From Eledone cirrhosa (Eukaryota): a stretch of DNA of 64,000 nucleotides. Numbering within the stretch: the stretch's first letter is position 1; every line of letters begins with the position of its first letter. The stretch lies in assembly GCA_964016885.1 (NCBI GenBank), contig OZ024766.1:6200001-6264000 (forward strand). Direction: 5' to 3'. Below, one piece after another: positions 51,181 to 52,619 of this stretch. The position numbers were made by a program, and so were the translations under genes. The notes beneath the pieces were generated by a model that was given only the letters and a program-made list of their open reading frames with translations, made no database searches and was not told where the DNA came from.

Positions 51181-51247
51181 TATTTTATTATGCATATTTC
51201 AGAGGTACTGAGTTAAGTTCAACAGTTGGTCCTCATCAGATAAAATA
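51181..51247 (-). ncRNA. Minimal type I hammerhead ribozyme (stem II partly decayed)
   Basis: Minus strand: tattttat-CTGATGA-ggaccaactg...cagtacctct-GAAA-tatgc-ATA-ataaaata. Perfect 8-bp stem I and palindromic stem III. Confidence 0.6.
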
Positions 51248-51414
51248 AAATGATGCATGACATACCCTGACATAGTAGATGGTTAAGATTGAGTCATGGT
51301 AGTCATATTAATAACTCTGGAAAACATTTTCCAGTTGAGTGCTTCCAATCTATTGTAAAACTCATTCTTTGATGTATTCATTGAACCTTGTTTAACTTCT
51401 TAAATATATATATA

Positions 51415-51765
51415 TATTATTTCTGAAGACGGCATATATATGTGTTGGGTATGTATATTTAATTTTGATAGTTTGTATAATTTTGCATAATTTTGTACAT
51501 AGATCTGTTGAATATGCATGCCAATTCTAACACATATATATCCTAGAAACGATCGTTAAATAATGAACTTTTTTTGTTTAATATAAGGAACTGTTTCATT
51601 GTTTTATTCATTATTTTTTTAATATTTTATCTTGACTCTGTATTCCGTTTATCTTTCACCGAAAGTGATTTTTCATTGCATCTCTTCTTTCCATGATATC
51701 CGGATTACATTGAGTTCTTCATACGGATTGGACACTACCGTAAACTCTTGGTAGATTTATCTACA
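51415..51765 (+). mobile_element. ~350-bp element starting with a long-stem-II hammerhead-like fold
   Basis: attattt-CTGAAGA-[~115-nt self-complementary insert]-GAAA-cgatcg-TT-aaataat, then ~200 bp shared with 6884-7085 on the minus strand; embedded in (TA)n. Confidence 0.7.
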
Positions 51766-51820
51766 TATATATATATATATATATAATATAAAATCAAAAG
51801 ATGGTTAAAAGAGTTTCAAG

Positions 51821-51891
51821 TATTTTATTATGCACATTTCAAAAACAAATATCATCCTGGGATGATATCTGCGTTTTCATCAGATAAAATA
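51821..51891 (-). ncRNA. Minimal type I hammerhead ribozyme
   Basis: Minus strand: tattttat-CTGATGA-aaacgcagatatcatc ccag gatgatatttgttttt-GAAA-tgtgc-ATA-ataaaata. Confidence 0.8.
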
Positions 51892-52033
51892 GGGATACAT
51901 CTTCCTTACCCTTTCCAACCCCCCCCCCCTTTTTTTTTCCCAATATCACACATCAATCTTAAATTATTTTTCATATGTTGATTTAAAACTTCACTATTCA
52001 CAAGTGTTTTTTAAGCTTCATATCATGTATCCC

Positions 52034-52104
52034 TATTTTATCTGATGAAAGCACAGATATCATCCCATGATGATATTTGTTTTTGAAATGCGCATAATAA
52101 AATA
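52034..52104 (+). ncRNA. Minimal type I hammerhead ribozyme, sense to the CACNG intron
   Basis: tattttat-CTGATGA(52042)-aagcacagatatcatc ccat gatgatatttgttttt-GAAA(52085)-tgcgc-ATA-ataaaata; predicted cleavage after 52096. Confidence 0.8.
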
Positions 52105-52225
52105 CTTGGAACTCTTTTAACCATCTTTTGATCTTATATTATGTATACTCCAGTCCCACAAACTGTAGAGTGCTTCTTATCCGATATTTGCATTGCTTTA
52201 TTGTGCTACAATAAAACTCACCTCC

Positions 52226-52285
<60 letters not shown>

Positions 52286-52315
52286 AGATCAAAAGATGGT
52301 TAAAAGAGTTCCATG

Positions 52316-52386
52316 TATTTTATTATGCGCATTTCAAAAACAAATATCGTCATGTAATAACATTTGTGTTTTCATCAGATAAAATA
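52316..52386 (-). ncRNA. Minimal type I hammerhead ribozyme
   Basis: Minus strand: tattttat-CTGATGA-aaacacaaatgttatt acat gacgatatttgttttt-GAAA-tgcgc-ATA-ataaaata. Confidence 0.75.
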
Positions 52387-52584
52387 GGAAGATATGATAT
52401 GAAGGTTAACATGATGATATTACATGATGATATTTGTTTTTGAAATGCACATAATAAAATACATGGAACTCTTTTAACCATCTTTTGATCTTATATATTA
52501 TGTATACTCCAGTCCTACAAACTGTAGAGTGCTTCTTATCCGATATTTGCATTGCTTTATTGTGCTACAATAAAACTCACCTCC

Positions 52585-52619
<35 letters not shown>

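What the first reader, a model, noticed from the sequence alone, without database searches (positions are those of the whole stretch)
51181..52590. Cluster of intact minimal hammerhead ribozymes in alternating orientation (retrozyme/Penelope-like family targeting TA tracts)
Seen in sequence: within 1.4 kb there are four complete type I hammerhead folds (51181-, 51821-, 52034+, 52316-), a 3' half copy near 52420-52460 and a long-stem variant (51415+). Further copies sit at 42001- and 57459+. All keep CUGANGA...GAAA..UH, a 7-8-bp stem I and a short, near-palindromic stem III. Stem II varies between copies but mostly still pairs (A/G and C/U changes giving G-U pairs). Established: minimal type I hammerheads with palindromic stem III are typical of Penelope-like pLTRs and metazoan non-LTR retrozymes, and can cleave as dimers. 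Inference: these are several non-coding, ribozyme-headed mobile families that I cannot match to a named cephalopod element.
Basis: partly seen in the sequence, partly recalled or inferred. Interest (0 to 1): 0.85.

Follow-up and report, generated by a model that had tools for sequence, protein, structure and literature searches.

The report
Jumping-gene ends carrying ribozymes and hairpins
These hammerhead-ribozyme shapes are the broken-off ends of four families of a known Penelope-like jumping gene piled into TA repeats; beside them lies a conserved hairpin, not found in the papers searched, that likely tells the element's enzyme where to start copying.

Summary
The hammerhead folds are real (11 in the window; shuffles give 0.05), but they are not non-coding retrozymes. 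Each of four families (A-D) is the 3' end of a protein-coding Penelope-like retrotransposon of the Hydra clade. Copies elsewhere in the genome carry a telomerase-like RT plus C-terminal GIY-YIG ORF upstream on the same strand. The cluster is five 5'-truncated insertions side by side in (TA)n. The alternating orientation is the usual inverted-arm structure. Single copies decay neutrally; only subfamily-level variants spare the core and keep pairing. Family C is very young: about 85 of 150 scored loci have full-length frames.

New here: each family's copies stop at two fixed 3' ends. Each of the seven ends tested lies a few bases (modes 0-7, one blurred) before the same motif, RCTC-stem-loop-YY-GAGY(R)CT. 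It also occurs in 58 of about 63 usable metagenomic Hydra loci, twice in 45, with covarying pairs. It likely positions reverse-transcription initiation and would explain the Penelope 'tail'. Cleavage, expression and hairpin function are untested.

The parts
50912..50960 (-). Family D insertion, inverted arm ending at fixed end 1; truncated next to the cut site, no full hammerhead
   Evidence: 98% to the D copy L160
50985..51122 (+). Family D (variant) direct arm with tail; tail hairpin at 51038-51060
   Evidence: 86% to L160; motif scan
51134..51306 (-). Family B inverted arm with hammerhead 51181-51247 (stem III and stem II damaged in this copy)
51305..51402 (+). Family B direct arm: tail only, hairpin at 51314-51343
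51415..51765 (+). Family C 3' end: long-stem hammerhead 51415-51565 (predicted cut after 51557), hairpin 51635-51718, tail to fixed end 2
   Evidence: 98% to full-length L157
51778..51900 (-). Family A insertion 1, inverted arm without tail; hammerhead 51821-51891
51900..52228 (+). Family A insertion 1, direct arm: end of 3' UTR, hammerhead 52034-52104 (predicted cut after 52096), hairpin 52147-52174, tail
   Evidence: 92% to the 3' end of L063
52272..52409 (-). Family A insertion 2, inverted arm without tail; hammerhead 52316-52386
52423..52588 (+). Family A insertion 2, direct arm truncated inside stem II (3' half hammerhead), hairpin 52506-52533, tail
57392..57574 (+). Family A arm without tail; hammerhead 57459-57529
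41957..42096 (-). Family D arm without tail; hammerhead 42001-42065
   Evidence: 100% to L160 over 140 nt
6884..7424 (.).

Best explanation
The cluster is five 5'-truncated insertions, side by side in TA repeats, of four protein-coding Hydra-clade Penelope-like retrotransposon families; their 3' pseudo-LTRs carry a type I hammerhead fold predicted to cleave only as a dimer and a hairpin that likely sets where reverse transcription starts. Steps: (1) shown: full units read 5' UTR - RT/GIY-YIG ORF - long 3' UTR - hammerhead - end 1 - hairpin 1 - end 2, and in partial or full tandems continue into hairpin 2 and the next ORF. (2) Inferred from the Poseidon in vitro work: the protein binds read-through RNA, nicks (TA)n and primes cDNA internally at two sites. 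(3) Inferred here: each site is fixed by the hairpin just 3' of it, with a few A/U bases pairing to the TA primer. One start at site 2 and one at site 1 give a tailed direct arm and a tail-less inverted arm. (4) Shown: 5' ends vary and do not pile up at the ribozyme cut, so most inserted copies likely come from uncut RNA. (5) Inferred: the hammerhead was selected in source elements, where two same-strand copies can pair through the 8-nt palindrome. In these truncated copies it is probably inert, because a read-through RNA is predicted to fold back on the inverted arm. Odds: identity 0.93; dimer cleavage in source RNA about 0.7; hairpin as RT-start signal about 0.55.
For: ORF link: A, ORF stop about 1.06 kb before the cut in L063, which has pLTR-ORF-pLTR. 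C, 7.0-7.1-kb units with an 813-aa ORF between two pLTRs in L157/L158. D, L160. B, L198 endonuclease end then about 1.9 kb, shared with L197, to the hammerhead. Protein: AlphaFold model (pLDDT 85.8) best matches telomerase TERT (Foldseek E 5.7e-9; Z 17.9, rmsd 3.9 over 301). The C-terminal domain best matches GIY-YIG I-TevI (Z 9.4, rmsd 2.3 over 89). RW, DKT, YRDD, CxCx5C, CxxC and CxH motifs are present as defined for Hydra. Fixed ends: A +51 (52 arms) and +140 (61 arms) of 141; B +55/+160; C +73/+210; D +52. 199 of 242 ending copies are followed by (TA)4. Abundance: 11,086 exact copies of a 33-nt A segment, control 0. Among the first 100 listed, neighbours within 3 kb are 18 divergent pairs, 2 same-strand, 1 convergent (hand count). 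Selection in sources: variants shared by 3 or more copies give G-U 8, Watson-Crick 3, A.C 1, other mismatch 3; core 1 in 44 columns against 29 in 254 unconstrained columns. Dimer: stem III costs +2.9 kcal/mol in the monomer and gives -10.5 as homoduplex. Hairpin.
Against: No cleavage or expression evidence was obtained. Rare substitutions hit the core as often as other positions (19/2422 vs 120/13467; G-U 14 vs A.C 15), so individual copies are not under selection. Pfam finds no RT or GIY-YIG above cut-off in the genome's own ORFs. Placement in Hydra rests on motifs and by-eye likeness to published sequences, not on a tree with reference proteins. B's ORF evidence is from decayed copies only. 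Hairpin 2 in A (L063) is imperfect and D's site 2 was not seen. End positions are blurred by TA microhomology and by subfamily differences from the reference: A site 2 stops at 11 nt in 39 of 60 copies and at 4-7 nt in 17; B site 2 at 0 in 11 of 16.
Confidence: 0.9

Rival explanations
1. The elements are non-autonomous non-LTR retrozymes: short non-coding units amplified through self-cleaved circular RNA.
For: No ORF in the window (tblastn of A and C proteins finds nothing). Type I hammerheads, low GC. A 2026 preprint derives animal retrozymes from PLE pLTRs (10.64898/2026.07.22.740005, first of 5 parts read).
Against: All four families connect to RT-endonuclease ORFs. Retrozymes are 150-450-bp head-to-tail repeats (PMC7229834 passages); none of the first 100 listed A sites has a same-strand neighbour under 1 kb. 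Copy ends are not at the cut site.
Confidence: 0.04
2. The hairpin motif acts as DNA, not RNA: an endonuclease recognition site or an internal promoter element of the pLTR, and the fixed ends are set by DNA cleavage near it.
For: Its 3' half is nearly palindromic (60 opposite-strand hits beside 103 sense hits). Two copies lie about 100 and 30 nt before the ORF, where PLE promoters lie. The D. virilis tail was needed for endonuclease recognition (as cited in PMC11167929).
Against: The inner pairs covary (first pair C-G 54, U-A 21 of 79) and include G-U. The register is fixed by a 2-nt bulge, and the loop ranges from a few to 100 nt. A double-stranded site would not need this. Tail-less arms lack hairpin 1 and tailed arms lack hairpin 2, so the motif lies just outside what was copied.
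Confidence: 0.25
3. The cluster is a host-selected ribozyme array with a function at this locus, for example RNA processing or a source of double-stranded RNA.
For: Local density is high: 3 exact 33-mer copies in 64 kb against about 0.24 expected (hand calculation). Insertion 1 would form a long fold-back (-185.6 kcal/mol).
Against: Copies decay neutrally. The 51181- copy is damaged. The pieces are bounded by TA tracts, the preferred target, and other loci hold neighbouring Hydra families too.
Confidence: 0.03
4. The hammerheads never cleave; the fold is kept for another purpose such as protein binding.
For: PLE hammerheads cleave poorly in vitro (PMC4209133). In Poseidon cleavage needs protein and is not needed for insertion (PMC11167929). 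No pile-up of 5' ends at the cut.
Against: Subfamily variants spare the catalytic core within four families. Stem III stays self-complementary across families while its sequence changes (partly demanded by the descriptor).
Confidence: 0.15

Closest known systems
Hydra clade of Penelope-like elements, including Hydra-1_Obim (Craig et al. 2021, PMC8557442)
   Same: Single ORF, RT then C-terminal GIY-YIG; RW[K/R/I], DKT, CxCx5C, CxxC, CxH; sense hammerhead near the 3' end; (TA)n target; partial tandems and inverted truncated arms.
   Different: Published families are generally under 3 kb; here A is about 3.7 kb and C about 7.1 kb, with about 3 kb of TA/TG microsatellite in its 3' UTR. Listed Hydra hammerheads have short stems II; here stem II is 30-116 nt with an unpaired C at the fourth position (13 of 14 clusters). 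Tails are 89-137 nt, against 30-40 given for PLEs. Hydra-1_Obim has another hammerhead and N-terminus (by eye). The paper reports a small number of extra families; this genome gave 52,054 first-look candidates for one endonuclease query.
Poseidon from Anolis carolinensis, PAc (Frangieh et al. 2024, PMC11167929)
   Same: Two internal reverse-transcription start sites define the tail; AT-rich targets; insertion does not need ribozyme cleavage.
   Different: Another clade. Its starts lie inside the ORF in an AC-rich stem-loop. The parts read (2 of 4) describe no repeated motif 3' of each start.
PLE minimal hammerheads (Cervera and de la Pena 2014, PMC4209133)
   Same: Type I, palindromic short stem III, predicted dimer activity, thousands of dispersed copies, opposite-strand pairs from truncated PLEs.
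   Different: Longer stem I (7-10 bp), much longer stem II, an 8-nt palindrome.
Metazoan non-LTR retrozymes (Cervera and de la Pena 2020, PMC7229834)
   Same: Type I hammerheads in repeats of low GC.
   Different: Retrozymes are non-coding head-to-tail repeats; these are ends of coding elements, mostly in divergent pairs.

Membership tests
Type I hammerhead ribozyme | CUGANGA / GAAA / UH core joined by stems I-III | tested here: met
   11 folds vs 0.05 in shuffles. Stem II, not demanded, pairs in 13 of 14 clusters at positions 2, 3, 5 and 6.
Type I hammerhead ribozyme | Match to an Rfam hammerhead model | tested here: not met
   No hit at gathering threshold or at E<=10.
Type I hammerhead ribozyme | Self-cleavage 3' of H17 | not testable with these tools
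   Needs an assay; only contigs, no raw RNA reads, were offered.
Penelope-like element (EN+) | Telomerase-related RT | tested here: met
   Model's top matches are TERTs; profile hit to a retron RT, E 0.004.
Penelope-like element (EN+) | GIY-YIG endonuclease in the same ORF | tested here: met
   I-TevI Z 9.4, then EndoII and UvrC; Y, Y, G, R, H, E invariant in 62 sequences.
Penelope-like element (EN+) | pLTR partial tandems, inverted truncated arm, optional tail | tested here: met
   L063, L157, L158, L160; two fixed ends in A, B and C, one measured in D.
Hydra clade | C-terminal endonuclease; RWK-like and DKT motifs | tested here: met
   RWR/RWI and SDKT in the C and A ORFs against the definition.
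Hydra clade | CxCx5C linker; CxxC and CxH around the conserved E and N | tested here: met
   Seen in A, C and D translations.
Hydra clade | Insertion into (TA)n | tested here: met
   199 of 242 ending copies followed by (TA)4.
Hydra clade | No CCHH motif, no IFD | tested here: inconclusive
   None evident in the translations; not aligned to canonical PLE proteins.
Hydra clade | Generally under 3 kb | tested here: not met
   A about 3.7 kb, C 7.0-7.1 kb; a tendency in the paper, not a definition.
Hydra clade | Groups with reference Hydra proteins in an RT tree | not tested
   The reference proteins were seen only as supplement text.
Naiad clade | N-terminal endonuclease, no canonical hammerhead | tested here: not met
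   The endonuclease is C-terminal and hammerheads are present.
Non-LTR retrozyme | Non-coding | tested here: not met
   ORF-linked in all four families.
Non-LTR retrozyme | Short head-to-tail repeats | tested here: not met
   Tested for family A only: no same-strand neighbour under 1 kb among the first 100 of 11,086 sites.

The most novel reading that the evidence does not exclude
Hydra-clade Penelope-like elements carry a second conserved RNA element, a bulged hairpin RCTC-stem-loop-YY-GAGY(R)CT present twice, that the telomerase-like RT binds to start copying a few bases upstream. The duplication itself creates the two ends and the 'tail' of PLE insertions: a template-positioning element comparable in role to those of telomerase RNA. 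A young family with many full-length frames is at hand to test it.
Probability: 0.55. Interest if true: 0.78.

Novelty: new member of a known kind. Interest (0 to 1): 0.52.

Why it matters
The ribozyme cluster itself is ordinary debris of a described clade, though it shows that the clade is abundant and recently mobile in this genome. What matters more is the hairpin. How Penelope-like elements choose their internal start sites and form tails is open: Craig et al. ascribe the tail to endonuclease cleavage, while Frangieh et al. show two RT starts without naming a shared signal in the parts read. A short motif at all seven ends examined, conserved across the clade, turns that into a direct experiment. 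Family C also carries kilobases of TA/TG microsatellite in its own RNA, so it may spread its own targets.

Tried and rejected
Rfam: no hammerhead model matched; the miRNA hits reflect the inverted arms and TA tracts.

Naiad: considered first, rejected on domain order.

Pfam: uninformative for the genome's ORFs (two homologues gave weak GIY-YIG hits, E 0.012 and 0.043). A single-sequence PDB search gave nothing.

Expression: no RNA holder listed. The four runs laid were contigs of uncertain type, two with only patchy short matches; no verdict.

5' ends at the cut site: looked for in 30 tail-selected A loci and in B, C and D loci, not found. The tail-only search for C returned nothing, which the tool says shows nothing, so C's 5' ends are biased by the query. 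D's end 2 was swamped by TA matches.

Hairpin: MAFFT could not align the motif's variable loops, so covariation was counted with anchors in a script and no covariance model was built. Isolated tails fold only modestly (z -0.8 to -2.0). The C.Y mismatch in stem II is not clade-wide: absent from the 41 metagenomic hammerheads. In one search the motif was found in only 6 of 28 hammerhead clusters (0.3 expected); many others are single or tail-less copies or may belong to other clades.

Earlier findings: three look-ups returned nothing.

Literature searches. Repbase and Dfam could not be searched, so these families may exist there under generic Penelope names. Lunse et al. 2017 was not read. The supplements of Frangieh 2024 and of the 2026 Octopus vulgaris repeat paper were not opened and may bear on novelty.

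Full report
Observation. Rfam has no matching hammerhead model. Two copies in the cluster are weak or damaged (51181-, 52316-).

Anatomy. Natural long copies map five TA-bounded insertions between 50912 and 52590: D, B, C, A, A. Four consist of an inverted arm that stops short and a direct arm that runs on through a tail; C is a single direct arm. One 33-nt piece of A has 11,086 exact copies, control 0. Among the first 100 listed, close neighbours are 18 divergent pairs, 2 same-strand pairs and 1 convergent pair (hand count). The alternating orientation is thus the family's normal insertion structure, as described for PLEs (PMC8557442 passages; PMC4209133, parts 1-2 of 4 read).

Coding link. 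Locus L007 showed an endonuclease fragment upstream of hammerhead A. Searching with it gave 52,054 first-look candidates, 150 scored. L063 has pLTR - ORF - pLTR, with the ORF stop 1,063 nt before the cut. Family C has 7.0-7.1-kb units with an 813-aa ORF (L157, L158). About 85 of 150 scored N-terminal matches lie in frames of 808 codons or more, several in 6-7-kb tandems (hand count), and its 3' copies are 98-100% alike. D is linked in L160 and B in decayed copies L197/L198. The A and C proteins are 48% identical over the RT. A model built on 73 sequences matches telomerase TERT best; the C-terminal domain alone matches I-TevI and other GIY-YIG enzymes. The motifs are those that define the Hydra clade (section 11 of PMC8557442). 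Its supplement lists Hydra-1_Obim from an octopus with a hammerhead and (TA)n preference (search hits and parts 2, 52, 53 read); by eye it is a different family.

Selection. In 221 copies of the four families, rare substitutions fall equally on core (19/2422) and unconstrained positions (120/13467), with G-U 14 and A.C 15. Variants shared by 3 or more copies behave differently: 11 keep pairing and 4 break it (G-U 8, A.C 1), and the core has 1 in 44 columns against 29 in 254. Copies were top-scoring hits de-duplicated by context, and the numbers are small. So the fold was selected in source elements and dispersed copies are decaying. Across 14 clusters with a 6-nt loop III and a long stem II, stem II pairs in 13 at each of positions 2, 3, 5 and 6, while position 4 is a C left unpaired in 13 (the clusters are related, and a few singletons may be chance folds). 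Stem III is unfavourable in a monomer and stable as a homoduplex, fitting the dimer model (review passages PMC6765202). In place, insertion 1 is predicted to fold back over about 120 bp.

Ends. A arms end at +51 or +140 from the cut (52 and 61 of 141 arms; most of the rest within a few bases), B at +55/+160, C at +73/+210, D at +52. 5' ends vary and show no peak at the cut. This parallels Poseidon, where RT starts internally at two sites that bound the tail and ribozyme cleavage is dispensable (PMC11167929, parts 1-2 of 4 read).

The hairpin. Just 3' of each end lies RCTC-stem-loop-stem-YY-GAGY(R)CT: once in the tail, once at the start of the next unit's 5' UTR. Exact match to the reference most often stops 4 (A1, with 7 next), 5 (B1), 4 (C1), 5 (C2, 33 of 35), 3 (D1), 0 (B2, TA overlap) and 11 nt (A2, a subfamily difference; 4-7 in 17 of 60) before it. 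In 77 metagenomic Hydra loci, a pairing-demanding scan finds it in 34 of 63 5' regions and 16 of 31 tails, against 1 and 1 on the opposite strand and 14 of 757 ORF windows. Without demanding pairing, its 3' half occurs 103 times in 9,737 nt upstream of ORFs, against 55 in 143,032 nt of ORF, in 58 loci and twice or more in 45. With a 2-nt bulge the first inner pair forms in 76 of 79 distinct sequences (0, 2, 10 and 22 for other offsets), mostly C-G or U-A, and 171 of 225 cells pair against 118 (max 142) after partner shuffling. Relatedness is not controlled, but the two copies within one element differ in their stems. By eye the motif is also in the published coral and sea-cucumber consensus sequences, though I could not see it in Hydra-1_Obim. 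Craig et al. have no 'hairpin' or 'stem-loop' in the main text, and searches listed no paper that appears to describe it. Its role as RT-positioning signal is inference; a DNA site for the endonuclease or a promoter element remains possible.

Verdict. The ribozyme cluster is a set of new families of a known clade, mostly dead copies. The octopus repeat papers checked name Penelope only generically (passages of PMC13282606 and PMC8967140). Interest rests on the duplicated hairpin and on a young, apparently intact family with which to test it.

Noticed in passing
L157:4380-7440 (G000:C4) and L158: Family C carries about 3 kb of TA/TG microsatellite in its 3' UTR. Two copies on different contigs align over 7,080 nt at 96%, and 1,513 of 2,670 unique 24-mers of the tract are shared (controls 3-5%). 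The element may spread its own target sequence.
   Followed up: partly
Family A position -124; family B about -115 to -118; family C about -142: Inversion junctions cluster at short palindromes (CATATG in A and B; the 5' edge of hammerhead stem I in C), suggesting cDNA snap-back. Alignment run-through and, for C, the query bias these counts.
   Followed up: partly
window:29115-30525: Tandem array of 92-111-bp TA-separated units that each hold the same tail hairpin, likely amplified tails of another Hydra family.
   Followed up: partly
window:23534-23594 (-), 28929-29064 (+): Further hammerhead folds of other or older families; 17207-17230 (-) has a core-like match not confirmed by the descriptor.
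   Followed up: no
window:6530 (+), 19542 (-), 43336 (+): Further copies of the tail hairpin, probably ends of other Hydra families.
   Followed up: no
window:47795-47852 and about 53180-53460: tRNA-like head (Rfam tRNA 30.4 bits), probably a tRNA-derived SINE. Many 48-59-bp and 127-164-bp tandem arrays in the window seem built from related sequence.
   Followed up: no
Flanks of L001-L194: 243 hammerhead-like folds in 28 clusters turned up in the 194 loci then held, indicating many more ribozyme-bearing families in this genome.
   Followed up: partly
G000:C6:49530961-49551217; C1:183737167-183757490: Head-to-tail arrays of four full-length C-type ORFs at about 6.65-kb spacing: the natural setting for same-strand hammerhead dimers.
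   Followed up: no
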